From assembly GCF_963921235.1 (NCBI RefSeq), contig NC_086108.1:69132001-69196000 (forward strand): 64,000 nucleotides of DNA. The letters are read 5' to 3'. A model generated the notes under the pieces. It worked only from the letters and a program-made list of their open reading frames with translations, was not told where the DNA came from and made no database searches. Position 1 is the stretch's first letter; every line of letters begins with the position of its first letter. This DNA is from Mobula hypostoma. Its lineage: Eukaryota. Positions 7,791 through 60,844 of the stretch are shown piece by piece. The position numbers were made by a program, and so were the translations under genes.

Positions 7791-7884
7791 ATGTATACTC
7801 AGGAGGGCGGTTCTCTACAACTCAATTTTGGGAATCGTGGAGAATCGAAGTTGAGTAAAAATCAAACAGAAGTGAACAGAGCAG
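7791..7884 (+). CDS. Putative first coding exon of the EGF-TM gene (MYTQEGGSLQLNFGNRGESKLSKNQTEVNRA)
   Basis: ATG has A at -3, with an in-frame upstream stop. The frame is open to a phase-1 GTGAGA donor that matches the phase of the EGF exon. It contains an NQT sequon. No signal peptide is seen, so this exon could be UTR instead. Confidence 0.45.
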
Positions 7885-18623: not shown

Positions 18624-19493
18624 CAGACATTCCACCCTGCAAAAACTCATTTCAGGGAGGTAGCACCATCAATTTGCGGGAGACCTCCGGGAGAGGTGGG
18701 ATGTCTGCAATGGAGTAGCTCCTTAGCAGCTGGCCAGCTAGTTTAAATAACATTAGCTATGCTAATGAACGAATGACACCTGTTAAACTCACCTCAACAC
18801 ATCTTTTACAGACTTCACCCACCATGGGCGATAGAAAAGTCACCGTTGCAAACAGTGCAGTGAGCAACACTGTCATTATTTTGACCCCTATTACGCAAGG
18901 GTACACTTTAGTGTAGTCTGGGGTGACGTACGTTTCATTTTTTTTGGAACACTCTGTCATGGCGCGCGCACGCGCGCTCTCTCTCTCTCTCGTGGTCGCT
19001 CGCGCGCTCTCGCTTCCTTTCTCGCTCTCTCTCGCGCGCGCGCTCTCTCTTCCTTTCTCGCTCTCTCTCGCTCGCGCGCTCTCGCTTCCTTTCTCGCTCT
19101 CTCTCGCTCGCGCGCTCGCTTCCTTTCTCGCTCTCTCTCGCGCGCGCTCTCGCTTCCTTTCTCGCTCTCTCTCGCTCGCGCGCTCTCGCTTCCTTTCTCG
19201 CTCTCTCTCGCTCGCGCGCTCTCGCTTCCTTTCTCGCTCTCTCTCGCTCGCGCGCTCTCTCTTCCTTTCTCGCTCTCTCTCGCGCGCGCGCTCTCTTCCT
19301 TTTTCGCTCTCTCTCGCTCGCGCGCTCTCTCTTCCTTTCTCGCTCTCTCTCTCGCGCGCGCTCTCTCTTGCTTTCTCTCGCTCGGTCTCAAAAAAATTGA
19401 TTTCCGTGATATTGTATATAATTTGCGGGCATCAGGGAGCCACTATTAATATGCGGGAGATTCCCGGAACTTCCAGGAGAGGTGGGATGTCTG
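18624..19493. mobile_element. Non-autonomous DNA transposon (P- or hAT-like) with internal minisatellite
   Basis: TIRs CAGACATTCCACC and GGTGGGATGTCTG; 7-bp TSD ATCTATG at 18617-18623 and 19494-19500. Confidence 0.8.
18962..19385. repeat. CT/CG-rich minisatellite (~34-36 bp unit CTCTCGCTTCCTTTCTCGCTCTCTCTCGCTCGCGCG)
   Basis: Directly visible tandem array of about 11 units. Confidence 0.9.
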
Positions 19494-20359: not shown

Positions 20360-20500
20360 TAATTAAGGAGAAACTTAGCTGTGGCGTCGTACCTTGTCTG
20401 AACCATGGCAAATGCACTGCATATCCATTTAGTAGACTTGGATTCCTGTGTATTTGCCCTCCTGGATTTTATGGAGATCTTTGTCAACATCGCTCAGCAG
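20360..20500 (+). CDS. EGF-like domain exon (VIKEKLSCGVVPCLNHGKCTAYPFSRLGFLCICPPGFYGDLCQHRSA)
   Basis: TTGTTTCAG acceptor and GTAAGA donor; 141 bp, phase 1-1. Six Cys in the canonical C-x4-C-x-N-x-G-x-C...C-x-C-x2-GF-x-G-x2-C pattern. Confidence 0.92.
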
Positions 20501-30985: not shown

Positions 30986-31082
30986 AGCCATTTACCGTTA
31001 TTTCACTTATTGGAGTCATTGCGATACCAATTCTCATCCTTGCTTTGTGCTTTGCCATCTGCTGCATTTGCAACAGGGAAAG
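30986..31082 (+). CDS. Transmembrane exon (EPFTVISLIGVIAIPILILALCFAICCICNRE)
   Basis: TATTTTGCAG acceptor and AAG|GTACGA donor; phase 1-2. About 23 hydrophobic residues, then a Cys cluster and basic residues. In phase with the EGF exon. Confidence 0.88.
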
Positions 31083-31849
31083 GTACGAGATAATTCCCAG
31101 TATTGTAAATTTTGTGCTATGTGAATCACTGGAAATGTATATGGGATGAATAATATTCTCATTGTCAACCCTCCAGATTGCACCATCAAGCTTTCAAAAA
31201 AAACTTTAAGATTTGTTTAAATCCATCACCAGCTACTTGTAAATCAAAGTCTCCACGATTTCCCTGTCCACGGACACGAACTCCTTGTCCACGGACTAGC
31301 ACATATCAGGTAGGGAATACAAGAAATATTTCCTTAGATGTATAAGAAATATTTTAAATTACTTTTAATGTAGAAATATCCGTTATCATTTATATTCATT
31401 GACCTTGGAAAAAGAAAATGCAGTATTAATTTCCCGGAGACCTGGTGTTTTGCCATTTGTGTCATGGTTTTATTAGTTGCAATTTGAGTCTGTGTGCCAA
31501 TAGAAATGTATAAATCATTTTTGTTAGTGCTGTAGTATCATTGACCACAATGTGATTTTCTTAGTATCCATTGGAATTCATTAGCTCTTTTTAAAAAAAA
31601 ATTGAAATCCAAATTAATTTTATATATTAAAAATAGAGATCTGATCTGGTCTTTAATTTCTGGAGCATAAAACTTACTTCAGGTTAACCTAAATGGGTAA
31701 GGTTGATGAACAGAGCATGGATCAGCACGTGGAATTATAACACTGTGGCTAATTGGCCATTAGTGAGACTTGGGGCTTCTTAACCAGGGCCTTGTATCCC
31801 TTGAAAACCAAAGTCCCTCAACATGTTTGCCTTGCCTTTTATTCTGACA

Positions 31850-39861: not shown

Positions 39862-39970
39862 GAAAGCTGTAAAAGAAGAGACAATACAAATCCATTTGAA
39901 CCTGAAAATGCTGACTTTCTTCGATGCGGCACAAGAAATGACCCACGTCAATACAATCCTGAATTGACTG
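39862..39970 (+). CDS. Cytoplasmic exon (ESCKRRDNTNPFEPENADFLRCGTRNDPRQYNPELT)
   Basis: ATTTTATAG acceptor and CTG|GTATGT donor. Only the phase 0-1 frame is open throughout. Confidence 0.7.
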
Positions 39971-41125: not shown

Positions 41126-42181
41126 ACAATGTTGTCTTCTCTATCAACATTTGCTGTATGATTACATTGTGCACCACCTAATTCTGTGCTGAAATACAAA
41201 TAAAGTGGAACAAGTTTAATGCAAACAACAGGAATTCTGCAGATGCTGGAAATTCAAGCAACACACATCAAAGTTGCTGGTGAACGCAGCAGGCCAAGCA
41301 GCATCTATAGGAAGAGGCGCAGTCGACGTTTCAGGCCGAGACGCTTTGTCAGGAACAAGTTTAATGTTTTGTTCTGTGGTATGTGATCTTACTGATAGAG
41401 TTTCCAGCATTAATATTGCATAGTGCTTAATTAGCAAGTGTGTGTGGACCTGCAAAAGGCTCAGAATGTTCCCTCTTCCTAACTTCTAGCTGACTCTTCC
41501 ACACCTTATTGCATCTGTAGTAAGAAAGTACAACATGAGCTGGATATTAGAAGGAAGTGTGGCTTACTTATTACTTTGCCCCACTACTAGACATCAAAAC
41601 CAGTGATAATCCCTAGCCTCGTGTCAAGGGTGCAGACACACTTCACACCTAACCTCCTTAAACCATTTCCAGCTGGCATATCTGCTACTATCATTCATTT
41701 ACTGGAGTGGCTGATTTCATATTCAAGAAGTTTTTTTTTGTTCAATCTTCTGTTTTGTAATGTACTCATTAGCTGAAGTTTGATGCATTTTAAATAAATT
41801 GTTTTGGTAGCCATCTTTTAAATTATTCAATTAAATTTCATTGTTTTATGTTGTCATTCATTATCAACCATTTAAACACAATGAAGTAGGCCTTTGACAA
41901 TAACAGCTGTGGAACGGAGACTGCAAAGTAATTGAGAGTCGCAAGTCTGCAAAAGGTTAATGTGGCTATGGATCTCATGTGGAGCTGAGCCTGCACAAGG
42001 GTTGGGGGTGTTTGGGGCTTCATTCAGACATAACTCAGCTCAGCACCACACTTAAACTCGTTGATTCAGGACGCAGAATTTGGAAAAGTTGGAAAGAACG
42101 TTGAAAGAAGTGTTCATCCTCTTTCTCACTTATTCCCTTTAACAACATTTGAGCTCGGGAAATCTAATTCATTGATTTCTA

Positions 42182-43071
42182 TCTCCCATTGGGCAAGCTC
42201 ACAACATAAAACATTGGCTTCCAATTTCCCCCTAGTAAAGGCAGCTACATTAGGCCATTATTTACTGACTACATCTCTACATTTAATGCTATAGTTCCAA
42301 GCAAATACTTCTCCAAACTCCTAGACCTGCGACTCAATACCCCGCCTTTCAAATGGACCTCGACTTCCTGACCAACGAGCCACAATCAATATGGATGGGC
42401 AGCCACACCTCCACCATGATTATTAATCCCACATGGCTATGTCCTTGGACTGCTTTTCTACCCCCAATACACTCACAACTGGTTAGCCAAATTCTGCTCT
42501 GAACATTTACAAAGTTTGCAGATGATACTACCGTAGTGGACACTGTACCTCAAATAATAATGAGTTGGAGTACAAGAAGGAGATGGAGAACAGAGTGATG
42601 TGGTGCCATGCCAACAACGTCAACGGCAGTAAAACTGAAAAGCTGCTCATGGACTTCAGGAAGATGTGGTTTCGACATACCTGCTCCTTACGTGAAAGGT
42701 GCTGAGATAGAGAGCTTCATGTTCCTAGGAGTGAAAATCACCAACAGCCTACCCTGGTCCAACCATATAGATGCAATCGAGTGTTTCGGGGGTAGAAAAG
42801 CGGTCCAAGGACATAGCCATGTGGGATTAATAATCATGGTGGAGGTGTGGCTGCCCATCCATATTGATTGTGGTCCGTTGGTCAGGAAGTCGAGGTCCAT
42901 TTGAAAAGGGGGGTACTGAGTCGCAGGTCTAGGAGTTTGGAGAAGAATTTGCTTGGAACTATAGCATTAAATGTAGAGATGTAGTCAGTAAATCATGGCC
43001 TAATGTAGCTGCCTTTACTATGGGGAAACCGGAAGCCAATGTTTTGTGTTGTGAGCTTGCCCAATGGGAGA
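42182..43071. repeat. Long inverted repeat with ~293 bp arms
   Basis: 42182-42474 is the reverse complement of 42779-43071, with few mismatches. Confidence 0.92.
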
Positions 43072-43946
43072 CAGGAAGCTCACCAGCACTTTTACTTCCT
43101 CCAGTAGGCTAAAGATATTTGGCATGTCCCCTTTGACCCCACCAAAGTTTGAACTGTAGAAAGTATTCTATTCAGATTCATCACAGATTGGCAAGGCAAC
43201 TGCTCTGTCAAAGGAAATGCATAAGTTATGGCCACAGCTCAGCACATTACAGAAACTAGCCTCCCTTCCTCTGTCTACACTCTTGTTTCCTCAGTAAAGG
43301 AGCCAGCATGATGAAAGACCCACCCAGCCTGGACAGTGTCTCATTTCCCTCTCCCATCAGCCAGAAGATACAAAAGCCTGAAAGCACGTTCCACCAGGAT
43401 CAAGGACAGCTTCTCTCCCGCTGTTATAAGACTATTGAACCATTCTCTTGTGAAGTGAAGAGTCCACTTCAGTGTACAATCTACCCTTCTATGCTTTTTC
43501 ACCTCACTGTCTACCCTGAACTTCCTCTGTAACCTTAACACACGATACTGCATTCTATTATTGTCTACCCTGAACTTCCTCTGCAACCTTAACACATGAC
43601 ATTGCACTCTATTATTGCCTTACCCTTTTCTCCCTCAGTGCACTGTTGCAATAAATTAATCTGTATGAATGGTCTGCAAGACAAGTTTTTCACTGTACCT
43701 CTGTGTATGTGACAATAATAAACCAATTTACCAATTGCATAAGCTATTCAACAATGCAGAAATGTGAATAAAAGACCCATAATTTGCACCTCATGCTCAA
43801 AGATCTGGATATTAAATCCAAGTTCTAAAATTGTGCATTTATTTAATGCAGAAAATTGTGACATAGATCTAAAGGGAAAATAAGTACCTGCTTAGAAAAT
43901 AGAGCATACTTATACTGGTGATGTATTCATTTCCTTTCTTCAACAG

Positions 43947-44024
43947 CCACACCAAGCTCTGTTGCAACTTTTCAACGGACTAATAAAGTAGAAAGAAGCG
44001 CTGGAAGCCATGGCCCATGCCCAG
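43947..44024 (+). CDS. Repeat exon 1 (ATPSSVATFQRTNKVERSAGSHGPCP)
   Basis: Pyrimidine-rich acceptor TTTCTTCAACAG and CCAG|GTACTC donor; 78 bp, phase 1-1, ends in PCP. Confidence 0.75.
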
Positions 44025-44835
44025 GTACTCGTCTATATGCTTTTTCATGAAGTACTTAGTAAAATTGTATCTTTTGCTAATTAGCAATGTGTGTCTGTCT
44101 AACATTTGTTGAATTATATTTAAAAAAAAGATTAAATGTGTACCAATATATGAAATACAACCACAGCCGTCTGTAATCTGTTTTTTTGCTGATTTGACCA
44201 TAATATCTTAGGGGTTTCATTTGCACCATTTTTTGTTATGCTATTTCTAATATAGTACCACTTGGCTCCTTGATGTAATATTACTCCATTTCATAAACAG
44301 TGGTTGAATTTTCCACATCAGCAGTACTTTTTCCTCATAATCAGACCCAAGGATATTGCCCTTGAATAGGTCACACTGCAGTACAGTCAACACTCAGCCA
44401 CCAGGGAGTGTTCACAAGGAATGTATGAAGAGTACAGTAATGGGAGCTGGTGATAGAATCCTCTGACGCTGATGTCAATACCCTATCGGAGAGGTAGCTG
44501 AATCCTCCTGGTAGGCAGAGGAACCTGCACAATTTCCTGAAGATCAGTGCTCAATTGAGGTAGCTTCCTTCTGTAAAGACCAGATGTGAAATCCTATCAA
44601 GCAACTATGAGTGCCTGCTCTCAAAGTTAGGGTCATCCTCATTTTTAGACACTGTGCCTCAAGATCTCTGTTGAAAAACACTAGGATACAAAACATAAGT
44701 CAATTCACACTTGAAGCTCCTACATGTCCAGGCATTACCTCTTGGACAGCTTCCTTTCATAAGTCAGATATCTTTCTTCAGTTGTTTTACTCATTTCTAA
44801 CCTAATACACACAGAAATGTTTCCCTCTGTTGCAA

Positions 44836-45446
44836 GATTTTGTATTGAGAGCATCCTGAGCAGCTGCATCACGGCCTGGTTCGGAAGTTGTACCATCTTG
44901 GATCGCAAGACCCTGCAGTGGATAGTGAGGTCAGCTGAGAAGATTATCGAGGTCTCTCTTCCTGTCATCACAGACATTCACACCACATGCTGCATTCGCA
45001 AAGCAAACAGCATTGTGAAGGACCCCACACACCCCTCATATAAACTCTTCTCCCTCCTGCCATCTGGAAAAAGGCACCGAAGCATTCGGGCTCTCACGAC
45101 CAGACTATGTAACAGTTTCTTCCCCCAAGCCTTCAGACTCCTCAATACCCAGAGCCTGGACTGACACCAATCTACTATACCCTCTACTGTGCCTACTGTC
45201 TTGTTTATTATTTATTATTATTTATTGTAGTGCCTGCACTGTTTTGTGCACTTTATGCAGTCCTGGATAGGTCTATAGTCTATTGTAGTTTTAGTGTTTT
45301 TTCTTTTGTAGTTCAGTGTAGTTTTTCTATTGTTTCATGTAGCACCGTGGTCCTGGAAAATGTTGTCTCATTTTTACTATGTTCTGTACCAGCAGTTATG
45401 GTTGAAATGACAATAAAAAGTGACTTGACTTGACTTGACTTGACTT
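44836..45446 (+). mobile_element. Rex1-like LINE 3' end with (GACTT)n tail
   Basis: ORF CIESILSSCITAWFG..LLPSGKR..NSFFPQA and a microsatellite tail. Confidence 0.82.
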
Positions 45447-45549
45447 ATTTTGGCATTTCTAGCAACTTAATTTTGAGGTGGAACCTCCTGAAAGCTCCTG
45501 AGGTTGTGGACACTGGGATCCCAGTTTGGGGCTGTCTACGTGTGCACAT

Positions 45550-46575
45550 AAACACAAGATATTCTTCAGATGCTGGAAATCTTGAGCAACACACATAAAA
45601 TACTGGAAGAACTCAACAGGTTAGGCAGCAGCTACGGAGGGGAATAAACGTGTTTCATGCCGAGACACTTCATCAGGATTGGAAAAGAAGGGGGCAGAAC
45701 CCAGAATAATAAAGTGGGGAAGGAGAAGGAATACAAGCTGGCAGGTGATAGGTGAGACCAGGTGAGGGGGAGGGGAACAAAGTAAGAAGCTGGGAGGTGA
45801 TTGGCTGAAGAAATTTGAAAGGAGAGGACAGTAGGCCATGGATGAAAAGGATGAAAGGGAAGGAGGGGAACCAGGGGGTGGTGATGGGCAGGTGAGGAGA
45901 AGACAAGGGGCAAGGGATTAACCAGAATGGGGAATGGAAAAAGAGAGAACATAGAACATAGAAAATCTATAACACATTACAGGACCTTCAGCCCACAATG
46001 ATGTGCTGACCATGTAACCTACTCCAGAAGCTGCCTAGAATTTCCCTACCACATAGCCCTCTATTTTTCAAAGCATTGTATAACTATCTAATAATCTCTT
46101 AAATGACCCTATTGTATGACTTCTACCATCCTCGCTGGCAGTGCATTCCACGCATGCACCCACCACTCTCTGTGTGGAAAAACTAACCTCTGACATCCTC
46201 TTTGTACCTACTTCCAAGCACCTTAACATTATGCCCCCTCGTGTTAGTCATTTAAACCCTGGGGAAAAATCCTCTGGCTACCCACACAATCAATGCCTCT
46301 CATCATCTTGTACACCTCTATCAGGTCACTTCTCTTCGTCCAAGGGGAAAAAGCCAATTTCACCCAACCAATTCTCATAAGGCATGCTCTCCAATTCAGT
46401 CAACATCCTTGTAAATCTCCTCTGCATTCTCTCTATAGTATCCACATCCTTCCTGAAACGAGGTGTCCAGAAATGAACACAGTACTCCAAGTGGGGTTTC
46501 ACTAAAGTCTTGTATAGCTGTAACATTACCTCGTGGCTCTTAAACTCAGTCCCATGGTTGATGAAGGCCAACACA
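45550..46575 (-). mobile_element. Penelope pLTR (45550-45948) next to a CR1 3' fragment (45948-46575)
   Basis: Minus-strand pyrimidine-rich pLTR with a CTGATGAAG..GAAAC core; CR1 ORF LYKTLVKPHLEYCVHFW. Confidence 0.75.
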
Positions 46576-48319
46576 CCAAAAGGTCAATAGGTACATTTAA
46601 TGTCAGAGAAATGTATACAATATGCATCCTGAAATTCTTTTTCTTCAGAAACATCCATGAAAATAGAGGAGTGCCCCAAAGAATGAATGACAGTTAAATG
46701 TTAGAACCCCAAAGCACAAGCAGCAGCTCCCCCTGCTATGCACAAACAGCAGCAAAGCAACAATCCCCCCTCCCCACCAGCAAAAAGCATCAGCGCCCCG
46801 CACTGAACACTCAAGCGTACAGCAAAGCATCAATAAAGACACAGACTTGCAGTACCCCAAAAACTACTCATTCACCCAGAAATTCAACATACCACAGGGT
46901 CTAATAGGGGAGAAAGAGGTTTCCCTGTTGCACAGTGAGAGAGGAGACATAACAAACAGCTTGCTGATTTACAATGTTAAAAGTCTTTTGTACTGCTTTT
47001 TCCAAGCTTTACGTCTAGAGAGTCGGCCCCAGAAAGGCTCAGCTCTTCAGATACACAACCCACAGCAGCTAACACGCTGCTCCTGACGTTCCGTGTTCTC
47101 CTGCAACGCTTCAGTCAGGGCCACCGGCCTAGAATCAGCACGTCTCTAGGACCACAAAAATCCAGCACCCTGAAGGCATGCTAGTCTTCCGGGCCACGTC
47201 CTTGGGATATCAAAAAGCGGCTGGTCATGAGGCCCTGAGAGTGGGTCCCATTACCGTAAAGAACCAAAGTCAGAGTGTAGCTCCATTTGTGCTTCCCCAT
47301 TCTAAAGAAAATGAATGCTTTTAAATGAAATGTCCATACTATATAAGCATTTAAATTTGATTGGCCTTAGGTTCTACATTGCCTTCATTTGAAAATATTT
47401 AACTGGCAGCTGCTGCAGGCTGTGATTTGATATTTTTGAACACAATTGAAGATGTATGTTACATCCATCTGTCATTACACTAATTTATATGCATATCTAT
47501 TTATTGTGCATCTAGATTTTTTTGTGTGGGAATGGAATAAACGAAGAGAAAAGCACTTTTATCAGAATAGGAGCTGTGTACAAAATTATCACTCAGGCCA
47601 CACTTGCAATCTAAATGTATATAAGCAGCATGCTGTTCATAATTCCATGTGGAAGTTACTAGACAAAGTTGAATACAAACAAAATATACAGTATATTTTT
47701 ATGAATTTTCTAAATTGTTGATGTAGTACTTTTCCTTAAAAAGAACAGGTATGGGAGAATTCTCATTGGGATTGTCATTGGATAATTCTTACAGCAACTG
47801 AGAAAAATAAGACGAAGTACCACAGTAGGCACAAAGCCAATAGAACACACAATTGAGAATAAAAGAAAGATATTAGAAACAGATGAAATGTGATGAAAAA
47901 TGAAAAGCCTTTCTTCTTAATATGCTTCTAAATAAAATTCAGTTCCTGGCACCAGAAAGTGTATTTGAATGAAGTGAATGTTAAGTGTCATGTATACATG
48001 AAGACAGGATCTTTTTCCACATCTAAATGTTGTTATTAGAACATTATTAAGTTAATCCAATTCAGTTCATGCCTATTTCAGATGGGACCCCTAAAATTCT
48101 CCACTATAAATGTAGGGAATAGATGATGTTTAATGCAAAAGACTATGATTCATTTGTCCTTCTGAAAGATCAACCAATAAACATTATATCCAAACTTACT
48201 TGTGCATTTACTTAGCATTAATAAGCAACAACACTTTTCATGTAAAATAGACATTTGATTAAAAGAAAATGTATACTATTCATCTTTTCTGGTATAAACT
48301 AACAATGCTTCTCTTTTAG

Positions 48320-48397
48320 AAATTCAACCAAGTATTGCTCCAGAGGAAAATCAAAGAAAATCTTCATCACACAGCATAAGCCAAAGTCCATGCCCAG
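48320..48397 (+). CDS. Repeat exon 2 (EIQPSIAPEENQRKSSSHSISQSPCP)
   Basis: CTCTTTTAG acceptor and CCAG|GTAATC donor; 78 bp, phase 1-1. Confidence 0.78.
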
Positions 48398-48800
48398 GTA
48401 ATCATTAATCTTGCAATGTACATACCATGAAATTTATAAAGTACATATATGCTTTAATCATTGACATATTAAATATTACTTCACCTAACATGTTAACAAA
48501 GAGAAAATATTTAAAAGTCAAAACATGGTTTATTGTCATGTGCCTGTATTAATCAACTTTACCTTCTGAAATGATAGGGAATTCAATATGTACATTAATC
48601 TGGTATAAATGTCCATAATTTACATTTTCTTCCCAGAGATATGGGCATAAACAATAAGGAAAATTTAAGCTCAATTACCATTCATCTATGCTAATTTTAA
48701 AACTGACAATGATTATCACAATTACTATAAATAAAATATATATTTATTTGATTTAAAGAAAACAGAATGCACATGTGATGTAATTATACTATTTATGCAG

Positions 48801-48887
48801 CAGTGAAGCAACACTCTGCTGCCTGTCAGACTGATCCAGAAGCCATAGATCAAAAATCACACATCGGAAGCAAAAGTCCATGTCCAG
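48801..48887 (+). CDS. Repeat exon 3 (AVKQHSAACQTDPEAIDQKSHIGSKSPCP)
   Basis: TTTATGCAG acceptor (NAGNAG) and CCAG|GTACTG donor; 87 bp, phase 1-1. Confidence 0.8.
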
Positions 48888-51800
48888 GTACTGATTCTAC
48901 CTAGTACATATTTAACATATCATGAAGTACAGAATGTCTTTGTATACTTTCCTAATTGGCACAAAACAGCAATTTATAAAATGGTATGGTTCTAATGTGT
49001 GCTAATTACAAAGCAGGCTACAAGTCATTTTGGTAAATTAGCCCACATCTGCATATTTCTGTTATTGTTTCACCAATATATTTATGCATATAGTTATATT
49101 TATTGAGTAACCTATTTGCAATAGAATAAAGCAATGCGAAGAGCTGATTATGGAGTATGTCGTCACAATGCCGAAAAATACTTTGAACTAGCCCATTGCA
49201 ATAATATAAGCTAGCAGCAAATCTGAGCTACACTTTGTATGTTTGTGCACAGGTGAGATTGTTTAATGTCACTGTTTAATGCAACAGTACATCCAGGAAT
49301 ATGCAAACATGTAGACCTACTTGACAAAAGATCTACGCACGTTCTAAGATGGTCCATTGTGTCAATGCAAATTTATACGGTTCAAATTGACTAAATCCAA
49401 CAACATGATGTTTGCATTTTCCTAAAGCTTAGGTTTTCTATTTAGAAGGTTATTTAGAGATTAATATATCTCCATAGATTTGAATACAAAGTCCTTATGA
49501 CTTCTATAAAATGGAATTCGGTAAGATGAACATATGAATCCAAATTTCAACCACAAGTACAAAATTAATAAACCTCTGGGTAAATTCAGTAATGAACTAA
49601 CTTTTAAAAATTAACTCTGGATCACCAGTTGAACTGCTTTCACCTTTTGATTTATTTTGTTACCTTTAGTGACACATTCCATTTACATATTAGGGTATAC
49701 CAAGAAGGGATGAAGGCTTTAATACAGATACCATCCTCTATTTATTAGTTTGCATTTATAACTGCAATAAAATAAGTGCAAAACACAGAGCACAAGCTAC
49801 ATCATCAAGCAAATGAGAGCCGCAGAAACAAAATTGTATTTAAAAAATTAAGGACAGTTAAAAATTGGAAAATATGCTCCTAAAAATGCATCCACATCAT
49901 TCCCAAGGTGCCCAACACCATGAAAATGCATTTCAATTTGATGAAAAGAATATTATGCACTTACAAGTGTATAAATATCTAAATGTTTCGCCAGGATATT
50001 GGTAAACAGTCCAGAAAATAATGCTTATATCAGGCAGAAAAATGTTAAATCCAGAAAGCTGAGTTTATTGTCATAGGCACAAGTACATGTCTGCACAGGA
50101 GCAGTGGGAAACTTCCTTGCAATAGCATTACAGGCACATATTACATAAGCAGCATTTACGATAAAAATTAACTAAATATTAATTAAACACAATTTTTACC
50201 AGAAATAACACACTTGGAACCAAAACAGTTTGTTCTAGTGCAAAGTGGTCAAAGTAGTCATAGTGTTGCTAAACCCTAGTGATTAGGGTTTTCTTCCTGG
50301 TTTAAAAACAGCTTTAAAAAGCTGTTCTTGAACCTGGTGGATTGGGACTTCAAGCTACTATATAGCTTGCCAAATGGTAGCTACAAGAAGATGTCATGGC
50401 CCAGATGCTAGGAATCTTTAGATATTTTCTCAAATGTACTGTTATATTAGTGAAAGCTATGGAGACATTATACTCGCAATTACCTTATGAGTCTATCAAT
50501 GGAACTCATTCGGATATCCGTTGTTCCCTAATTTAGCTGACAGGACATTCTGACATAACTTTTCCTAATGGATATTTCATTTTTGAAATTTCTCACAGAG
50601 GATGCCATTGGGTCACATTTACTACAGCTATTGAGAGAAATGAGGGCTGCAGCACAGCCTAGAGCTCTGATGTGACAACATGAAAATTTGATGAAGAAAA
50701 CTTTAAAAAAAAAAGAGGAAAATATTTTTCTAAAAAAAGCATTTCATTGAGCTTTCGGAAGCAAATTGACGCCTGAAAATGTGCTATTTGTTGAACTTAT
50801 TTGATGTTTTCAAGACCAAATTGGCCAGGAGAAAGTGGCGGTAGAAGGTTGTTTTTCAGGCTGGAGGCCTGTGACCAACAGTGTGCCGTAGGGATCTGTG
50901 TTGGGACCACACTTGTTCAACATTTGTATTAAGGATTTTGGATGAGAATGTTGGTGGGCTTAGTCAGTTTATGGATGAATCTAAAATCGGTGGTATAGTG
51001 TTCAGTGAAGATTATCTAAGATTCCGTGAAGTCTTGATCAATTGAACCAGCAGGCTGAGGAGTGTCTGATGGAGTTTATTTCAAATATATGCAGAGAGAG
51101 AGAGAGAGAGATTGACTGACTGACTGACTGACTGACTTTGGGTACAGGTACATAGTTCCTTTAAAGAGGTGACGCAGGATAGGGTGGTGAAGAAGGGTTC
51201 GAATCATAAGGAGTGGCTGAACTTTTTTTCCCTGCAGTGGAGGAGGATGAGAGGTGATCTTGTATATGTATATAAATCAAAAAGGATATTAATAAGGTGA
51301 ATAGCCACAGTCTTTTTCCAAGGGTAGGGGAGTCCAAAGCGAGAGGGCATAGGTTTACATTGAGTAGGACAAGATTTAAAATAGATCCAAGGTGCAAATT
51401 TATCACACAGAGGGTGGTGCTAATATGAAATGAGCTGCCAGATGAAGTGCTTGGGGCAGGTGCAGTTAATATATTTGGAAGACATTTGGACAGGTATACT
51501 GATTGGGAAGGTTTAGGGCTAAACACAGACAAATGGGACTAGCTTATGTAGACAAATTAAGCAGCGCTGACAAGTTGGGCCAAAGGACTTGTTTCTGAGC
51601 TCTATAGCTCTTTGATTCAAACGTGCGGTATAGCCATGGTAAGTTCAAATGCCTCTGTATGAATTGCCATCCAAAAACAATAAACTATTACAATAAAGTC
51701 CATGACGATAATATATAAGAACGTTCGAACACATCATTCTCCTCTGGTATGAACTCATCAAAATTGCTTTTAAAATGCATAGGATATTTAAAATGTACTT

Positions 51801-52000
51801 TAAAATGGTATAAATGTCCATAATTTGCATTTTCTTCTGGGGGGTCTTGGGGTAAACAATTGGAAAACCTAAGGCCAATCAGCATTCATCTGTGCTCATT
51901 TAAAACTGAAAATGATTGTCATAATTACTGGAAAATAAAATATATATTTGATTAAATGACAGCAGAATGCACGAATGATGTAGCTTTATTATTTATGCAG

Positions 52001-52096
52001 CTGTGGAACAAAGCTCCGTTCATTGTCAGACTGACTCTGAAGCTGTTGATCAAGAAATATCCACATCTCATATCAGAAGCAAAAGTCCATGTCCAG
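52001..52096 (+). CDS. Repeat exon 4 (AVEQSSVHCQTDSEAVDQEISTSHIRSKSPCP)
   Basis: TTTATGCAG acceptor and CCAG|GTATTG donor; 96 bp, phase 1-1. Paralogous to repeat exon 3. Confidence 0.8.
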
Positions 52097-52289
52097 GTAT
52101 TGATCCCACCTAGTACTGTACATATTTAATGCATTGTATATCATTAGGTACAGAAGTTTTTAAAGCTTTTCTAACTGGCAAAATAGCAGTATAAATTGAA
52201 TCAAAATCAGGTATATCATATATCACTGACATATGTCATGAAATGAGTTGTTTTGCAATACATCATAATAAAAACTAAATTACTGCAAG

Positions 52290-52302
52290 TGTGTGTGTAT
52301 AT

Positions 52303-52354
<52 letters not shown>
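52290..52354. repeat. (GT)/(CA)n microsatellite
   Basis: Directly visible. Confidence 0.9.
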
Positions 52355-52356
<2 letters not shown>

Positions 52357-53304
52357 ACTGTAATTTACAATTTACATGGCTTCATTGTCCATTCAGAAAT
52401 CTGAAGATGGTGGGGAAGAAGCTGTCCTGAAATGTTGAGAGTGTATCTTCGAGCTCCTGTACCAGCTCCGTGACGGTAATGATGGGAAGGGGACCTGTCC
52501 TGGGTGATGGGGTTCCTTAATGATTGATGCCACCGTTTTAAGGCATCACCTTCTGAAGCTGTCCTGGATGCTGGGAAGGCTAGTGCCATGATGGAGCTGG
52601 CTGAGTTTACAATTTTCTACGGCTCTGTTCTACGGTGATGCAACCAGTTAGAAGGCTCTCCACACTACATCTGTACAAATTTGCGAGTGTATTTGGTGAC
52701 ATACCAAGTCCTCTCAAATCCCTAATGAAATATAACTGTTGTCGTACTTCCTTTGTGATTGTATCAGCATGTTGGGCCCAGGACAGATTTTCAGAGACGT
52801 TGACACCCAGGAACTTGAAGATGCTCACCCTTTCCACTGCTGATCCCTCGATGACGACCAGCGTGTGTTCCCTTGACTTCCCCTTCCTTATGTCATTTCC
52901 CTGGTCTTAGTGATGTTGAGTGCAAGGTTGCCGTTGTGACACCAGTTAACCAGCTGATCTATCTCACTCCATATCACCTCCTCATCACCATCTGAAATCC
53001 TACAAACAATGGTTGTGTCGTCAGCAAACTTATAGATGCCGTTTGAGCTACGCCTAGTCACGCAGTCATGGGTGTAGAGAAAGTAGAGCAGTGGGCTCAG
53101 CCTGAGGCGCTCCAGTGTTGATTTCAGCAAGGAGGAGATGTTATTTCTGATCCACACTGCCTGTGGTCTCCTGGTAAAGAAGTCAAGGATCCAATTGCAG
53201 ATGCAGGTACAGGGGCCAAAGCTTTGGAGCTTGTTGTTTTGAACTGAGTGTATGATTGTGTTAAACACTGAGCTGTAATCAATGTCCAGGTGATCCAAGG
53301 TCAA

Positions 53305-53877
53305 GTGAGACCACACCTGGAGTATTGTGTGCAGTTTTGGTCCCCTAATCTGAGGAAAGACATCCTTGCCATACAGGGAGTACAAAGGAGGTTCACCAGA
53401 TTGATTCCTGGGACGGCAGGACTTTCATATAATGAAAGCCTGGATGAACTGGGCTTGTACTCGTTGGAATTTAGAAGATTGAGGGGGGATCTGATTGAAA
53501 CGTATAAAATCCTAAAGGGATTGGACAAGCTAGATGCAGGAAGATTGTTCCCGATGTTGGGGAAGTCCAGAATGAGGGGTCACCGTTTGAGGATAAGGGG
53601 GAAGCCTTTTAGGACTGAGATTAGGAAAAACTTCTTCACACAGAGAGTGGTGAATCTGTGGAATTCTCTGCCGCAGGAAACAGTTAAGGCCAGTTCATTG
53701 GCTATATTTAAGAGGGAGTTAGATATGGCCCTTGTGGCTACGGGGATCAGGGGGTATGGAGGGAAGGCTGGTGCAGGGTTCTGAGTTGGATGATCAGCCA
53801 TGATCACAATAAATGGCGGTGCAGGCTCAAAGGGCCGAATGGCCTACTCCTGCACCTATTTTCTATGTTTCTATTTC
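53305..53877 (+). mobile_element. Young 5'-truncated CR1 nested in the Rex-like LINE
   Basis: Uninterrupted ORF2 C-terminus (VRPHLEYCVQFWSP..KNFFTQRVVNLWNSLP) and a TTTCTATG tail; flanked by AAGTG. Confidence 0.88.
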
Positions 53878-56800
53878 TAAGTGGAGAGCCAATGAGGTTG
53901 CATTCGGTGTAGACCCATTGTGGCGATAGACAAATTGCAGTGATCCAGTTCCTTGCTTAGGCAGGAGATGATTCTAGTCATAAGCAATCTCTCAAAGCAT
54001 TTCATTACAGACGTGAGTGCCACTGGGCGATAGTCATCGAGGCAGTTCACCCAGCTCCTCTTGGGCACTGGTATGATTATTGCCCTTTTGAAGCGGGTGA
54101 AAAACTCCAAATGCAGCAGTCAGAGATTGAAGATGCCCTTGAACACACTTGTCAGTTGGTTGGTACAGGTTTGCAGAGACAGAGATCATAGCATCACCAG
54201 ATTCTGTCATGATTCACACAAGCGTAGTTTTATTCTCCCTTTCAAAGTGTGCCTAAAAGGCATTGAGCTCATCTGAGAGTGAAGCATCACAATCATTCAT
54301 AACGTTAGGTTTTTCTTTGTGGGAAGTAGTGATCTGCAAACCCTGTTAGAGCTGATGTGCATCAGATTCCTCTCGCCTCAATTGGATATTTTGCTCTTAA
54401 AATAGCCTTCCATTGGTCATACCTGGATGACTTGTATAGTTCTGGATCACTGGTCTTGAATGTCACAGATCCAGCCTTCAGCAGACTAGGAATCTCTTGG
54501 TTCATCCATGGCTTTTGGTTTGTGTATGGACTGTATGTTCTTGAAGGCACACATTCACCCACACAGGTCTTAATGAAGTTGGTAACAACTATTACGTATT
54601 CATTCAGATTCAAGGATGAATCCCTGAATATTGTCCAGTCCACCGACTCAAAGCAGTCCTCTGCCTCCCTTGACCATACCTTCTTGGTCACCACTGATGC
54701 TTTGATCTTTAGTCTCTGCCTATATGCTGGGAGTAGAAGTAGAGCCAGGTGAATGGACCTTCCAAAGTGTTGGTGTGTGATGGCACAGTAAGCATTCTTG
54801 ACTATTCTGATAACAGTGGTCAGGTGTGTAGGCTCACTCCTCTGGTTCCACAGGTGATATGTTGGTGGTAGTTGTTCAGAGTCTTCAAACTGGCCTGGTT
54901 GACATCCCCCACAATGATAGGGAAGGCATCGGGATGTGCTGTTTCATCCCTCTCATTAGGATGCTCAACTCCTCCAGTGCCTGCCTGACGTTGGCTTGAA
55001 GTAGAATGTACATCACTACCAGGACAATAGTGGAAAAATCTTTCAGCAAATAAAAAGATGACATTTGACCACTAGATGTTCCAGGTCGGGTAAGCAAGTC
55101 TGAGACAGAACCATCATGTCTGTGTGCCATAATGAGTTAATCATAAATCATACACTATTTTCTCTACCTTTATAAGACCGAACTATCCTTTCTTTGTGGA
55201 GAAAGGTAAAGCCATTGGGCTACAATACCTTGGCTGAAATGGTGGGTGATAGCCATGTTTCCAAGAAGCAAAGTTCACAGCAGTCCCTCTGGTACAGCAA
55301 TCTTGCTCTGAGGTCTTTAATTTTATTTTCCAGAGACTGTAAATTCACTAGCAGAATAATTGGGAGTGGGCATCACAGGTCCTGATGTCAAGGCATTTTG
55401 GTAAAATCATGCACGTTGTTTATTTCTGGGTTTTTTTTTGGCCAATATAATAGTGTATGTAGTTGCATTTATTGAATACCCTGTAGTGCAATTGGGTAAA
55501 GCAACGAGAAGAATATTTCTGTCCGTATTGTCTGATTGTGGAATACATATTCACAGAAAGTTGAGTTTGTATACTTTTAACTGTCATAACGTGTAAATGG
55601 ACAGCAAATCTGAGCTTCACTTGATATCTTTGTGCATGGTCGAGATTATGTAATGAAATTGTTTAACAGAGCAGTTCAGCTGGCACTAAGCAGACCTAAA
55701 CAACAAAACATCTACAGGTGTTCGAAGATGGTCCAATGTATCAGTGGAACATTTATAAGGCCTAAATTGTCCAAACCCAAGCATGAGATGACTGCACTTT
55801 CTTAAAGCTTGGTTTGTTCCATCTAAAAGGTTATTTAGAAATGTTTATGATTCCATAGCTTCAAATACAAAGTTCTTATGATTTTTGTAAAATGGAATTT
55901 AGTGACAAGAGTGTATTCATCTGAATTTCAACCACTAGTATAAAATTAACAAACCTTTGGACAAAGTCAGTTATGAATTAACTTTTGAAAATTTACACCT
56001 TGAAACTTATTGAAACCACTTTCATCTTCATTTATTTTGTTGCTCTTAGCAACACATTCTATTTAAGTATGAGGGTGTACCCAGAAAGAGTGAAGATTTC
56101 AACTGACATGCTCGCATTTATTTTATTAACACTGCTTTTATGAATTAAATTCAAACTTTGTCCGGATATTTTTTTTTGACCTGTTTGTCAGGGCATTTCA
56201 GACCCATTACTTTCCCCAAAAAAGATTCGCAATGGAAATATTATTGGGACACGTTTATAGCTGTTAGGGAAATAAAACCAGTGCAAATAAAGGGTACATG
56301 GTACATAATCATGAAAATGATAACAAAGTACAATAAGAAGAAATGTTAAAAAATTGAAAAGTATTTTCCTGAAAATGCATTCATATCGAACTATTGGTCC
56401 CTAATACCATAAACTGCATTTCATTTTGATGAAAAGAATAGTATGCATTTACAAGTTTGTGAATTTCTAAATATTACTGCCAGGATACTGATAAAATAAT
56501 CTAGCAAAATTTGTGTTTATTTCAGGTGGCAGTTCCTTAAAGCACAAAAGTTGAGTTTATTGTCATATGCACATGTATGCATAAGTGCAATGAAAAACTT
56601 CCTTGCAACAGCATCTCAGGTTTATATCATTACATAAGCAACATTCACAGGAAATAAAAATTAATTAACAATTAACAACATTAAAAAGAACAATTGGAAC
56701 ATTTTAATGCAAACTGATCAAAGTGTTCCTGATTGTGCTAAACTCTAGTGATTAGGGTTGTGTTGGATGGTTCAAGAACTGAATGGTTGAAGGGAAGTTG

Positions 56801-58361
56801 AACCTAGTGGATTGGGACTTCAGGCTATTGTACTTCCTGCCTGATGGTAGCAGAAAGAAGACGGCATGGCCTGGATGGTAGGGATCTTTGATAGACGATG
56901 AAGGATATTTCACTCAAATGTACTGTTATACCAGTGAAACCAACCAAGGTATTGTACACACAATTACCTTATCAGTCTAGCTATATAACTCAAATCAGAT
57001 ATCATTTTTCCCTTTCTGATCTGACAGGGCAGTCTGACAAGCACAAGAAAACCTGCAGATGCGGGAAATCCACACAACACTTCCTAATAAATATTTCAAT
57101 TATAAAGGTACTCACTGAGAATCTTGTTGAGTCACATTGAGAGCACATTGACAGATTAGAGCCTGAAGTGTCGGCAGTTGGAGTAAAACATGAAAAATTG
57201 CTTTAAAAAAGGAAGCATTCTTCTAAATGAGATTTCATTGAGCTTTCAGAAGCAAATTGGTCCCTAAACACATTGTATGAATTTATTATGTTTTCCAGAC
57301 AAATTTGGCTAGGAGAATGAGTGATGGTTGAGGCTTGTTTTTCAGATTGGAGACCTGTGCCATAGGGATCTATGCTCGGTATATTTTTGTTCATCATTTG
57401 TATTAAGGATTGATGAGAGAGTGGATGGCATGGTTAGTAAGTTAATGGGTGATACTAAAATTGGTGGTAGTGAAGAAGGTAATCTGAGATTCAATGGGAT
57501 CTTGATCAACTCAGCCAACGGACTAAGGAGTGGCTGATGGAGTTTATTCCACATGTATATGCATAGCTGCATTTTGGCAAGACAGGCCAGGCCAGGACCT
57601 GCAGGGTAAACAATAGGGATTTAAGAAAGTGGATTTAAGATAGACCTAGGATGCAGGTTGATAGTTTCTTGAAAAAAAGCAGCACAATATAGGGTAGAAA
57701 AGAAGGCTTTTAGCACACTTGCTTTCATTGGTCTGGATATTAATTATGGGAGTTGCTACATCATATTATGGAATGCAAGATGCCTGCAATGCCACATTTA
57801 GAGTACTGCGTGCAGTTCTGATCACCCAAATGCCAAAAGAAGGATACCATTAAACTTGAACGAGCACCAAGAAGATTTTTAAGTGCATGTTACTGGGGTT
57901 TGAGACAAGCTCAGGTATGCAGATTAATCAGCACAGATGAGTTGAACTAAAGGACTTGTTTCTGTGCGGTACAGCTCAATGAGTTAAACATTTAAACTTG
58001 GCAAATTCATATTCCTCTCTATATGTTGTCATCTAAAAGCAATATAATATTCCAGTAAACTTCATGATTACAACATGCAAGAACTATGAACCCATGTCAT
58101 TCTCCTCTGGAAATACATGGAATACCTTCTGAAATGCATAGGATATTCAAAATGTACATTAATCTGGTATAATTGTACGTAATTTGCTTTTCTTCCTAGA
58201 AGTCTGGGTATAACAGTGAGAAAATCTAAGCTCAGTTAGCATTTGTCTTTGCCGATTTAAAACTGACAATGATTATCTTAATCACTATAAAGTAAAATAT
58301 ATATTTATTTGATTTAAATAAAGCAGAATGCTCAAATGATGTAATTGTACTATTTATGCAG

Positions 58362-58457
58362 CAGTGAAGCAACGCTCTGTTAAAAGTCAGACTGATCCGG
58401 AAGATGTAGATCGAAAATTATCTCTATCACACGTCAGAAGCAAAAGTCCATGTCCAG
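58362..58457 (+). CDS. Repeat exon 5 (AVKQRSVKSQTDPEDVDRKLSLSHVRSKSPCP)
   Basis: TTTATGCAG acceptor (NAGNAG) and CCAG|GTACTG donor; 96 bp, phase 1-1. Paralogous to repeat exons 3 and 4. Confidence 0.8.
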
Positions 58458-60215
58458 GTACTGATCCTACCTTGTACATATTTCACACATTGCAGTTTAT
58501 GTCTTTGTATGCTTTTGTAATTGACATAAAATAGCAAATTATAATTTGACCAATTATAAAATTGTATGGCTCTAATGAATGCAAGTATACAGAGCACAAC
58601 AAGAACAGGCAGCAAGGCATTTTGGTAAATTAGTCCACAATACTTATTTCTGTTCTTGTTTCACCAATATGATTATGTATATGGTTGTCTTTATTGAATA
58701 ACCTATATGCAATTGGGTAAAGCAATGAGAAGAGATTTTCTCTACGTATTGTGTGATTATGAATTACACAGTCACAGTGCACAGAAATACTTTTAAGAAA
58801 CCCGTCACAATAGCCTATAAACCAGCAGCAAACCTGAGCTTCACTTGATTTTGTTGCACACCGCTGAGACTGTCATTGTTTAATGGAACAATTCATCCAG
58901 CATTAAACAAACATACAGACCCAATCAACAAAGGATCTACTGTGTTCAACAATGGCCTAGAGTGTTAATGAAAGGTTTGTGATGTTCAAATTGATGAAAC
59001 CCAACTATATTCTGGATGATTGCACTTTCTTAAAATGGGCAGCTTCTTAATAACTTCTATTTAAAAGGTTATTTAGAGATTATTATAGTTCCATAGTTTT
59101 GAATACAAAGTCACTATGATTTTAATAAAAATAGGAATTAATAAGAATATATTAAAATCACTTTAAGCCACAAGTTCAAAATGACCAAACCTTTGGACAA
59201 AAACAGTTTTAAACTAAATTTTGAAAATTAACAGAGTCACCTTGTTGTAATGTTTCATCTTTTGATTTATTTACTTGCCTTTATCAACACTTCCCATATA
59301 AATGTTTAAAAAAAGGGTTTAATTGAGGTAATATGCTTTCATTTATGAAATGATTGCTGCTTTTTAATGAATTGAACTCAAAACTTTGTCCAGTTGTTTT
59401 CTCTTGACCTGCTGGACAGGGAATTGTTTTTCCATTACTTTCTCCGAAGAGGATTCACACTGGGAATATTATTGGGTCACACTTATAACTACTGGGGAAA
59501 TTAGGTCAATGCAAAGCACAGGACACAGAATCATGCAAATGAAAGAAGGAAAGCACAATATGATAAAAACAAAGCAAAAAGAAGGGATGTTAACAAATTG
59601 TATAACATTCTCCTGAAATTACATCCATATCATACCATAACACCATAAAAATGCATTTCATTTGGTGAGAAGATTATGCATGTGCAAGTGTATGAACATC
59701 TGAATGTTGCTACCAAGACTTCAGTAAAATAGTCTAGCAAAAATTGCCCTTATTTCAGGTGGAGGATACTTAAACCCTGAAAGAAAAAGGAGCACTATAC
59801 CTGACGAAGGGTCTTGGCCTGAAACATCGACTGTTCTCTTTTCCATAGATGCCGCCTGGCCTGCTGAGTTCCTCCAGCATTTTGTGTGTGTTGCTTGGAT
59901 TTTCAGCATCTGCAGATTTTTCTCTCATTTCAGATTAAAGATTAGTTTTATTTGTCACATATTCATCGAAACAAGTAGAAAATGCATCATTTGCATCGCA
60001 TCAAATCAAATCAATGAAGTTTGCGCTGGGCAGCTGCAGGTGTCACCACACTTTTAGCACCAATATAGTGTGCCCAGAACTCATTACCCCTAACCTGTAT
60101 GTCCTTGGATTGTGGTAGGGGACCGGAGAGCCCGGAGGAAACCCTCGCGGTCACAGTGAGAACATACAAACTCATTACAGACAGTGGTGGAAATCAAACC
60201 CTGATCTTATTGATA

Positions 60216-60433
60216 GAAGAAGAAGAAAGCCCTTAACTCCGAGTGGAGTCATTGGAACACTGTCATGGAACGACTTTTTTTTTAGCAGGCTTTCTTATTT
60301 TTACAAGGCCGAGTTGCTAGCTCGACGCTCAACCCGGCACAGATGGAAAGCGTGCAAGGGAGCCGGCTGGATTCAAGCTCGGGAGCCTTCATTCCGAAGT
60401 CCGGCGCTGATGCCACTATGCCACCAGCTGGCT
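60216..60433 (-). mobile_element. tRNA-derived SINE with (TTC)n tail
   Basis: Minus-strand A box TGGCATAGTGG and B-box-like GCTTGAATCC; flanking near-duplicate GATCTTA(T/C)TGAT. Confidence 0.72.
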
Positions 60434-60844
60434 ACGATCTTACTGATGGCACTGTAATAACATTCTGCTAATCAGTGTGCCACTGTGCCACAGATGGTAT
60501 TGTCACATATATAAGAATATGTACGCATTGGTGCAATGGAAAAACTTCCTCCTTGCAGCAACATCATAGAAACAGTGTCATTAGAGAGGCTTTTGCAAGA
60601 AAAACATACTCTGTATATCAAACATAACATGTAAGGACAAAAATAGAACAAAATAAAAGCGAAGTCCATCGTGTGCTGAGTCATCATGTCCTGTTATATT
60701 AGGGTAATGGATCAGGTTGTGCATTGTACAACAACAGCACAAATGAGGAAAGTAAATGACGTGTATGTCTATTTATGATGTCACGTGATCGGCAACAATG
60801 AATATATCAACTCAGGATTTATAAACAAACAAGCATTTATTAAA

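What the first reader, a model, noticed from the sequence alone, without database searches (positions are those of the whole stretch)
43947..58457. Cytoplasmic tail grown by tandem exon duplication: five symmetric exons ending in (S/G)PCP
Seen: exons of 78, 78, 87, 96 and 96 bp, all phase 1-1, all stop-free, all ending CCATG(C/T)CCAG|GTA. Length differences are multiples of 3. Exons 3-5 sit in recognisably paralogous introns. Weaker intron similarity near 43770 and 47500-47980 suggests older units for exons 1-2. Inference: frame preservation despite intron divergence implies selection. Symmetric exons also allow combinatorial skipping, which would tune repeat number.
Basis: partly seen in the sequence, partly recalled or inferred. 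Interest (0 to 1): 0.82.

Follow-up and report, generated by a model that had tools for sequence, protein, structure and literature searches.

The report
Ray membrane protein's duplicated tail exons
These are real coding exons of an unstudied shark-and-ray membrane protein whose inner tail grew by repeated copying of one small frame-neutral exon, a known way of building floppy protein tails, seen here in a gene of unknown function.

Summary
Confirmed and extended. The five exons are real: 78, 78, 87, 96 and 96 nt, phase 1-1, stop-free. They are the first five of ten paralogous exons; five more lie just beyond the window. All five are in frame in 8 of 8 RefSeq models of Mobula hypostoma LOC134354888 (uncharacterised), a protein with one EGF module, one membrane helix, no signal peptide and a long, probably disordered tail. 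Relatives were named in 12 sharks and rays only; a tandem paralogue lies downstream. Exons 3-5 arose from roughly 3-kb duplications.

No model skips any of the five; skipping is annotated only for downstream copies and in skates. Selection is shown for frame and splicing, not for most residues. Skates keep a basophilic kinase-like motif in most copies; Mobula in 4 of 10. It fails three ErbB-ligand criteria. Verdict: a new example of a known mechanism in an unstudied family.

The parts
7791..7884 (+). Probable true first coding exon (31 codons, phase 1 donor, no hydrophobic signal peptide), next to a CpG-rich stretch; absent from the RefSeq models of this species
   Evidence: 59% identity over 27 residues to the N-terminus of a Narcine isoform, pairwise E 5e-8; 42% to skate N-termini
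19451..19481 (+). First coding exon of all 8 RefSeq models; lies in a stretch repeated at 18652-18707, so probably repeat-derived or a minor start
20360..20500 (+). EGF-module exon, phase 1-1, all six cysteines in one exon, spacing 4-5-11-1-8
   Evidence: Pfam EGF E 1.8e-8
30986..31082 (+). Transmembrane exon (phase 1-2) ending in a cysteine cluster and basic residues
   Evidence: hydropathy peak 3.12, next best 1.08
31177..31309 (+). Juxtamembrane exon (phase 2-0) that puts the following exons in frame
39862..39970 (+). Last non-repeat exon before the array (phase 0-1), conserved in sharks and rays
   Evidence: no flank similarity to the repeat exons
43947..44024 (+). Repeat exon 1 (78 nt, phase 1-1), old copy
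48320..48397 (+). Repeat exon 2 (78 nt), old copy; carries the basophilic motif; best weak match of the single similar unit in a shark
48801..48887 (+). Repeat exon 3 (87 nt; 84 nt from a tandem acceptor at 48804); 9-nt in-frame deletion relative to exons 4 and 5
52001..52096 (+). Repeat exon 4 (96 nt)
58362..58457 (+). Repeat exon 5 (96 nt); carries the basophilic motif
48503..51530 (+). Duplication unit around exon 3 (about 3 kb; ends approximate)
51534..57900 (+). Duplication unit around exon 4 (about 3.2 kb plus about 3.2 kb of dispersed-repeat insertions at about 52200-55390)
57901..60650 (+). Duplication unit around exon 5 (3' end approximate)

Best explanation
The exons are the first five of ten paralogous phase 1-1 exons in the middle of the cytoplasmic tail of an uncharacterised elasmobranch single-pass protein (EGF module outside, one helix, no signal peptide). 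SHOWN: each copy descends from one intron-plus-exon unit; seven copies are old and radiate star-like, while exons 3-5 are a younger triplication of about 3-kb units. INFERRED mechanism: unequal crossing-over; a 1-1 exon adds whole codons, so every duplicate is tolerated at birth. SHOWN: selection keeps frame, splice sites and the last 21 nt, but not most residues. INFERRED: the last proline is mainly a by-product of the CAG before a weak donor. INFERRED function (about 40% on its own): the copied unit is a phosphorylation cassette (two basic residues, any residue, Ser/Thr, then a serine-rich run), so the array is a disordered multisite kinase substrate or scaffold, well kept in skates and partly decayed in Mobula. 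The confidence given is for the whole account with this function as one component.
For: Ten profile hits, all on annotated in-frame exons, E 3e-33 or better; next hit E 1e-4 is another annotated exon; no decayed copy in 224 kb. Tree: exons 3-5 form the only supported clade (100/99), the rest unresolved. In frame in 8 of 8 models. In runs X1, X3 and X4 the bin means for three exon-bearing bins equal exon length times one contig depth (X1 2.6/1.23/1.87 at depth 7.47; X3 3.79/1.8/2.73 at 10.9; X4 6.5/2.6/3.95 at 15.8, first bin higher than the 5.4 predicted), which is what a spliced contig gives (my arithmetic). Frameshifting indels occur at about 2 per 100 nt in the introns: 2.9 expected in the three exons, none seen (P 0.058); with stops (0.34) and splice dinucleotides (0.26) the product is about 0.005. 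All 10 donors have CAG before GT, none has G at +5 and only 2 have A at +4; exonic and intronic donor strength are negatively correlated in mammals (PMC4671708, abstract). Basophilic motif in the middle region: Leucoraja 14 (1.7 expected), Amblyraja 12 (1.4), Rhinoraja 9 (1.5), Mobula 4 (1.0), none in the last 237 residues of 7 full-length proteins. One helix per protein, net charge +1 to +6 after it.
Against: Exon identity equals flank identity. dN/dS is 0.19, 1.17 and 0.38 on about 30 codons, and dN is not significantly below intron rates. Three of the five exons in the finding (1, 3, 4) lack the basophilic motif; Narcine has 1 (0.7 expected) and sharks 0-1. The shuffle P-values are inflated because the copies share one ancestor. 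The 21-nt invariant run has a post-hoc chance of 0.05-0.17. No splice joint of these exons was listed among the 15 shown of 2583, and those runs may be the ones behind the RefSeq models. No tissue, localisation or phosphorylation data. The kinase consensus is recalled, not from a call.
Confidence: 0.55

Rival explanations
1. Near-neutral accordion: the repeats are a tolerated disordered spacer. Copies arise because symmetric exons are harmless, frame is kept only to protect the conserved C-terminal exon, and the shared Pro-Cys-Pro end is ancestry plus splice-signal constraint.
For: Exon identity equals flank identity. Synonymous positions at the exon end are fixed too: first Pro codon CCA in 10 of 10. 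The Cys is Tyr in 2 of 10 Mobula copies and differs (Arg or Cys) between skate records at one site. Sharks expanded other exons at the same place. Copy number differs between skates.
Against: A useless symmetric exon could be lost for free by a splice-site mutation (P about 0.26 that exons 3-5 keep all dinucleotides), yet 10 of 10 copies are intact and no dead copy was found. Exon 8 lost its 5' half next to a LINE-like fragment and is still spliced in frame. The basophilic motif persists in otherwise diverged skate units.
Confidence: 0.3
2. The repeated cysteines are the function: palmitoylation, disulphide cross-linking or metal binding in a structural Cys/Pro-rich tail, as in sperm-tail or cornified-envelope proteins (comparison recalled).
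For: Pro-Cys/Tyr-Pro occurs 9 times in the Mobula middle region against 0.2 expected; skates carry 31-33 Cys there, including a further 10-residue Cys repeat.
Against: The Cys is often replaced in skate units and twice in Mobula; cytosol is reducing (established knowledge); no tissue data.
Confidence: 0.08
3. The main purpose is isoform diversity: cells tune repeat number by combinatorial skipping.
For: Models skip downstream exon 8 (3 of 8), exon 9 (2 of 8) and exon 12 (1 of 8) and use tandem acceptors at three exons; skate, Narcine and shark models also skip whole units. In run X3 the contig laid on exon 3 carries four letters of exon 5, which could reflect a skip.
Against: 0 of 8 models skip exons 1-7; the longest model includes all ten, so they are not mutually exclusive. 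The X3 letters are equally explained by placing exon 5 on its paralogue, since exon 5 lay outside the laid stretch.
Confidence: 0.05
4. Opposite topology: without a signal peptide the helix could be a type II anchor, making the Ser/Thr-rich repeats an extracellular mucin-like stalk.
For: No N-terminal hydrophobic stretch in the orthologues; Ser+Thr is 18-27% of the middle region.
Against: The six-cysteine EGF module is conserved and needs an oxidising compartment; positive charge follows the helix; NRG4 also lacks a signal peptide yet has its EGF domain outside (PMC8064692, passage); three shark records end in a PDZ-ligand-like ETDV.
Confidence: 0.02

Closest known systems
Disordered proteins built from consecutive symmetric exons by internal tandem duplication (Schad et al. 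2013, PMC3632108; abstract and passages read)
   Same: Run of same-phase symmetric exons, similar to their neighbours, encoding a low-complexity region with a repeated short motif.
   Different: Here it is the tail of a membrane protein; intron paralogy dates the copies; different exons expanded at the same site in rays, skates and sharks.
Pro-neuregulin-4 and tomoregulin/TMEFF (ESM Atlas feature scores 0.89 and 0.91 for residues 1-130; PMC8064692 and PMC1618406 passages)
   Same: One EGF module close to one membrane helix; no signal peptide, as in NRG4.
   Different: EGF module has no intron between Cys4 and Cys5, no Arg before Cys6, and 4 instead of 7 residues between Cys1 and Cys2; no follistatin domains; tail of 450-800 residues with no detected similarity.
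PECAM-1 cytoplasmic domain, exons 9/10-16, alternatively spliced (PMC2132561; passages read)
   Same: Cytoplasmic tail assembled from small exons, some skipped, with phosphorylatable motifs in single exons.
   Different: The passages read do not describe PECAM-1 tail exons as copies of one unit; its motif is a tyrosine site; functional effects are shown there and untested here.
RefSeq LOC134354888 (Mobula hypostoma) and orthologue models LOC129700943, LOC116977805, LOC119964595, LOC127568721, LOC144598216
   Same: This is that gene; the five exons are already in the automatic models.
   Different: All are labelled uncharacterised or by composition only; none of the six identifiers occurs in the searched papers (supplements were not searched).

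Membership tests
ErbB/EGF-receptor ligands (including NRG4, TMEFF) | [quoted passage not shown] | tested here: not met
   All six cysteines lie in one exon, 20360-20500; same in the paralogue
ErbB/EGF-receptor ligands (including NRG4, TMEFF) | EGF module within about 25 residues of the membrane helix (PMC8657471, PMC1618406) | tested here: met
   About 10 residues between Cys6 and the start of the hydrophobic stretch
ErbB/EGF-receptor ligands (including NRG4, TMEFF) | Arginine before the sixth cysteine (His in tomoregulins) (PMC1618406) | tested here: not met
   Leu or Phe in all 8 aligned sequences that hold the module
ErbB/EGF-receptor ligands (including NRG4, TMEFF) | Cysteine spacing 7, 4-5, 10, 1, 8 (PMC8657471, EGFR ligands) | tested here: not met
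   Spacing 4, 5, 11, 1, 8
ErbB/EGF-receptor ligands (including NRG4, TMEFF) | Binds or activates an ErbB receptor | not testable with these tools
   No binding assay possible; no complex prediction was run
Symmetric-exon tandem-duplicated disordered regions (Schad 2013) | Three or more consecutive exons of one symmetric phase class | tested here: met
   13 consecutive phase 1-1 exons, ten of them repeats
Symmetric-exon tandem-duplicated disordered regions (Schad 2013) | Sequence similarity between neighbouring exons | tested here: met
   Exon and flank z-scores; ten profile hits
Symmetric-exon tandem-duplicated disordered regions (Schad 2013) | Encoded region predicted disordered | tested here: inconclusive
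   AlphaFold2 on the Heterodontus orthologue: pLDDT under 50 for 613 of 659 residues, but with 9 sequences even the EGF module was not modelled; composition is polar and Ser/Thr-rich; no disorder predictor was run
Mutually exclusive tandem exon arrays (Dscam type) | Only one copy of the array per transcript | tested here: not met
   Longest model holds all ten copies; two skate proteins from sequencing-run contigs hold many units together
Class I PDZ-binding C-terminus (pattern recalled: Ser/Thr at -2, hydrophobic last residue) | Terminal motif present | tested here: inconclusive
   Present in Heterodontus and both Scyliorhinus species; Chiloscyllium has Asn at -2; rays and skates end in Ala, Asp or Gly

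The most novel reading that the evidence does not exclude
An elasmobranch-restricted pair of signal-peptide-less EGF membrane proteins, one of which has a tail that evolves as an exon accordion: sharks keep a PDZ-ligand-like end and expand one set of exons, while rays and skates lost that end and multiplied a kinase-site cassette, with copy number and skipping setting the number of phosphosites, so that it works as a tunable juxtacrine signalling scaffold without a counterpart in bony vertebrates.
Probability: 0.2. Interest if true: 0.65.

Novelty: new member of a known kind. Interest (0 to 1): 0.38.

Why it matters
The mechanism is known, so the array alone is not surprising. Two things give it value. 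First, it is a datable natural series (seven old copies, one triplication, a copy truncated beside a retroelement, separate expansions in skates and sharks) that lets one separate selection on splicing from selection on peptide motifs in duplicated exons. Second, it marks an unstudied EGF membrane-protein family found here only in sharks and rays; if the tail is a multisite phosphorylation cassette, it would be a lineage-specific signalling protein whose site number is set by exon copy number.

Tried and rejected
Assembly artefact or pseudo-exons: rejected; copies are 77-86% identical with diverged introns, exon 2 is single-copy in the genome search, and a related organism's DNA-like contigs cover exons 2 and 3 (run X5). 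3'-UTR exons: considered because the membrane exon ends in phase 2 and the exon at 39862 is open only from phase 0; resolved by the exon at 31177-31309. Direct splice joints: the one read-laying run was swamped by dispersed repeats; no joint between these exons among 15 shown, 2568 not shown. No run is on record as RNA. ErbB-ligand membership: rejected on three criteria. Orthologues outside elasmobranchs: none among 11 hits or 17 hits of 8000 scored candidates; word-based searches can miss distant relatives, and of the 150 rows I examined only six. Pfam finds only EGF. Structure model too poor for a fold search (pLDDT 34); none run. Synteny: 129 of 249 unmasked ORFs (those of 50 aa or more) in the 47.7 kb upstream gave only an integrase hit and an ALKBH8_N hit, so the upstream neighbour is unidentified. 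The paralogue's N-terminal region has no Pfam, PDB or Atlas assignment. Ser/Thr-Pro is not enriched (P 0.10-0.76). Literature: no paper names the loci; a search on cartilaginous-fish EGF membrane proteins listed five unrelated papers (listing only); supplements were not searched. No cross-species tree of repeat units was made, so unit-to-unit orthology between species rests on reading alignment A1 and weak tblastn matches (E 0.03-0.5).
Full report
Observation. The 13-nt exon-end pattern occurs five times in the window, against 0.11 expected. The exons are 43947-44024, 48320-48397, 48801-48887, 52001-52096 and 58362-58457, each a multiple of three, phase 1-1 and stop-free. Exons 3-5 lie in duplicated units of about 3 kb, with 75-81% identity in aligned blocks and Jukes-Cantor distances of 0.23-0.29.

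The array is larger than reported. The window lies at G000:C50:69132001-69196000. In the next 15 kb there are five more copies: L004:1692-1769, L004:6278-6373, L004:6831-6881, L005:859-948 and L005:4405-4479. Upstream flanks of exons 1, 3-7 and 10 are mutually similar (z 4.4-49); exons 2, 8 and 9 are linked more weakly (best flank z 4.6, 5.2 and 4.2) and by the exon itself; four non-repeat exons of the gene score at most 2.5 upstream. A profile of the ten units finds these ten (they match by construction), one further annotated exon at E 1e-4, and no decayed copy in 224 kb. In the tree only exons 3-5 form a supported clade. A related organism's DNA-like contigs differ from this locus by about 3-5% (table 8), so the triplication is several times older than that split.

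The gene. Upstream lie an EGF exon (Pfam EGF, E 1.8e-8), a membrane exon and two linker exons. The EGF exon matches RefSeq LOC134354888 of Mobula hypostoma at 100%. Its 8 isoform models map exon by exon onto the region; all contain the five exons in frame and end in a long terminal exon with its stop at L007:9618-9620. Independent of the labels, three RNA-like runs show bin depths equal to exon length times a single contig depth in the bins holding the membrane exons, the exon at 39862 and exons 2-3 (my arithmetic; 8 of 9 values fit, one is higher). These runs are only guessed to be RNA, come from one study, may be the ones used for the annotation, and no joint was listed. The likely first exon is 7791-7884, which matches skate and Narcine N-termini; the modelled start at 19451 sits in a local repeat.

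Family. Relatives were named in six batoids (Mobula, Leucoraja, Amblyraja, Rhinoraja, Narcine, Pristis) and six sharks (two Scyliorhinus, Heterodontus, Heptranchias, Pristiophorus, Chiloscyllium). The last 240 residues are 59-64% identical across them. All 11 hits and all 17 were elasmobranch; sensitivity is limited. The genome holds one other such EGF exon, in a tandem paralogue 128 kb downstream of this one. Each full-length protein has one hydrophobic helix, positive charge behind it and no signal peptide, so EGF outside and tail inside is the likely topology (inference); NRG4 is a precedent for lacking a signal peptide (PMC8064692, passage). The module fails three of four sequence criteria for ErbB ligands (PMC1618406 and PMC8657471, passages).

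The middle of the tail differs by lineage. Reading the proteins and isoform deletions: skates have their own duplications of this unit type, with different copy numbers in Leucoraja, Amblyraja and Rhinoraja; Narcine has fewer; Heptranchias and Scyliorhinus have one similar unit, and sharks repeat other units two or three times. Boundaries in other species are inferred from protein only, and unit-level orthology rests on weak matches.

What selection keeps. Exons 3-5 are 77-86% identical, their upstream 240 nt 81-87%. dN is 0.17-0.21; dN/dS is 0.19, 1.17 and 0.38. Non-synonymous changes number about 17 against 23 or 17 expected from distant or near intron (P 0.12 and 0.54). So most residues show no detectable constraint. 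In contrast, no frameshift occurred where 2.9 were expected, no stop arose and all splice dinucleotides survive (product about 0.005). The last 21 exon bases are invariant (which corrects the 22 assumed); longest invariant intron runs are 11-13; post-hoc P is 0.05-0.17. All ten donors have CAG before GT with weak intronic positions, which forces the last full codon to end in CA (Pro, Ser, Thr or Ala); weak intronic halves go with strong exonic halves in mammals (PMC4671708, abstract). The first Pro codon is CCA in 10 of 10 copies, which also points to constraint on the nucleotides or to shared ancestry. The cysteine is Tyr in two copies.

Likely working. Shown: origin by tandem duplication, coding use, constraint on frame and exon ends. 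Inferred: unequal crossing-over, with phase symmetry making each copy harmless at birth. Inferred function: the unit carries a basic-basic-x-Ser/Thr motif (PKA-type, recalled) in a serine-rich run. It occurs 14, 12 and 9 times in three skates (1.4-1.7 expected), 4 times in Mobula (1.0), once in Narcine and 0-1 times in sharks; copies are not independent, so the P-values overstate the case. I put about 40% on a multisite phosphorylation role, about 30% on a near-neutral spacer, and the rest on cysteine-based, isoform-tuning or other roles. Skipping is annotated for downstream exons 8, 9 and 12 but for none of exons 1-7.

Comparison and verdict. Building disordered regions from tandem symmetric exons with repeated short motifs is described (PMC3632108, abstract and passages), and a tail of small skippable exons is known from PECAM-1 (PMC2132561, passages). 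The exons are already in automatic gene models, but no searched paper names the loci. This is a real, well-supported new example of a known mechanism in an unstudied family. Interest 0.38.

Noticed in passing
L009:7133-7342, L011:2847-2978, L012:4570-4955, L014:3062-3820: Tandem paralogue downstream on the same strand: an unassigned N-terminal region of about 110 residues, an EGF exon (58% identical), a membrane exon and a long Ser-rich last exon. A Pristiophorus model fuses the two genes.
   Followed up: partly
L004:6418-6881: A LINE-like fragment directly abuts repeat exon 8, which is half the usual length (48 or 51 nt); its tandem acceptors lie at the end of the fragment. The exon stays in frame and is skipped in 3 of 8 models.
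   Followed up: partly
L004:1660-1769: Repeat exon 6 seems to have lost its ancestral acceptor (AA where paralogues have AG, 22 nt upstream) and to use a later in-frame AG; seen by eye.
   Followed up: no
window 7791-7884 and 19451-19481: RefSeq models of this species start in a repeat-like stretch; an upstream exon matching skate and Narcine N-termini is the more likely start.
   Followed up: yes
L007:9600-9620: C-terminus: three shark records end in a PDZ-ligand-like motif; rays and skates end in Ala, Asp or Gly.
   Followed up: partly
window 20360-20500: The EGF exon is itself symmetric; one Heterodontus model skips it and the Narcine models examined lack it.
   Followed up: no
window 7440-7700: CpG-rich stretch upstream of the first exon, with short open frames on the minus strand; a divergent neighbour gene is possible but was not identified.
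   Followed up: partly
window 31240-31300: The juxtamembrane exon has a short internal duplication containing Cys-Pro-Arg that is absent from the orthologues aligned.
   Followed up: no
window 18970-19390: GC-rich tandem repeat of about 420 nt in the first intron.
   Followed up: no
window 42176-42474 and 42779-43077: Inverted repeat of 299 nt at 95% identity in the intron before repeat exon 1.
   Followed up: no
skate proteins P0018 and P0181, about residues 520-630 and 465-575: A separate 10-residue cysteine-containing repeat, about ten copies, removed as one block in one Leucoraja isoform.
   Followed up: no
L017:8977-9510 (minus): Integrase core domain fragment (Pfam rve, E 1.5e-11) upstream of the window.
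   Followed up: no
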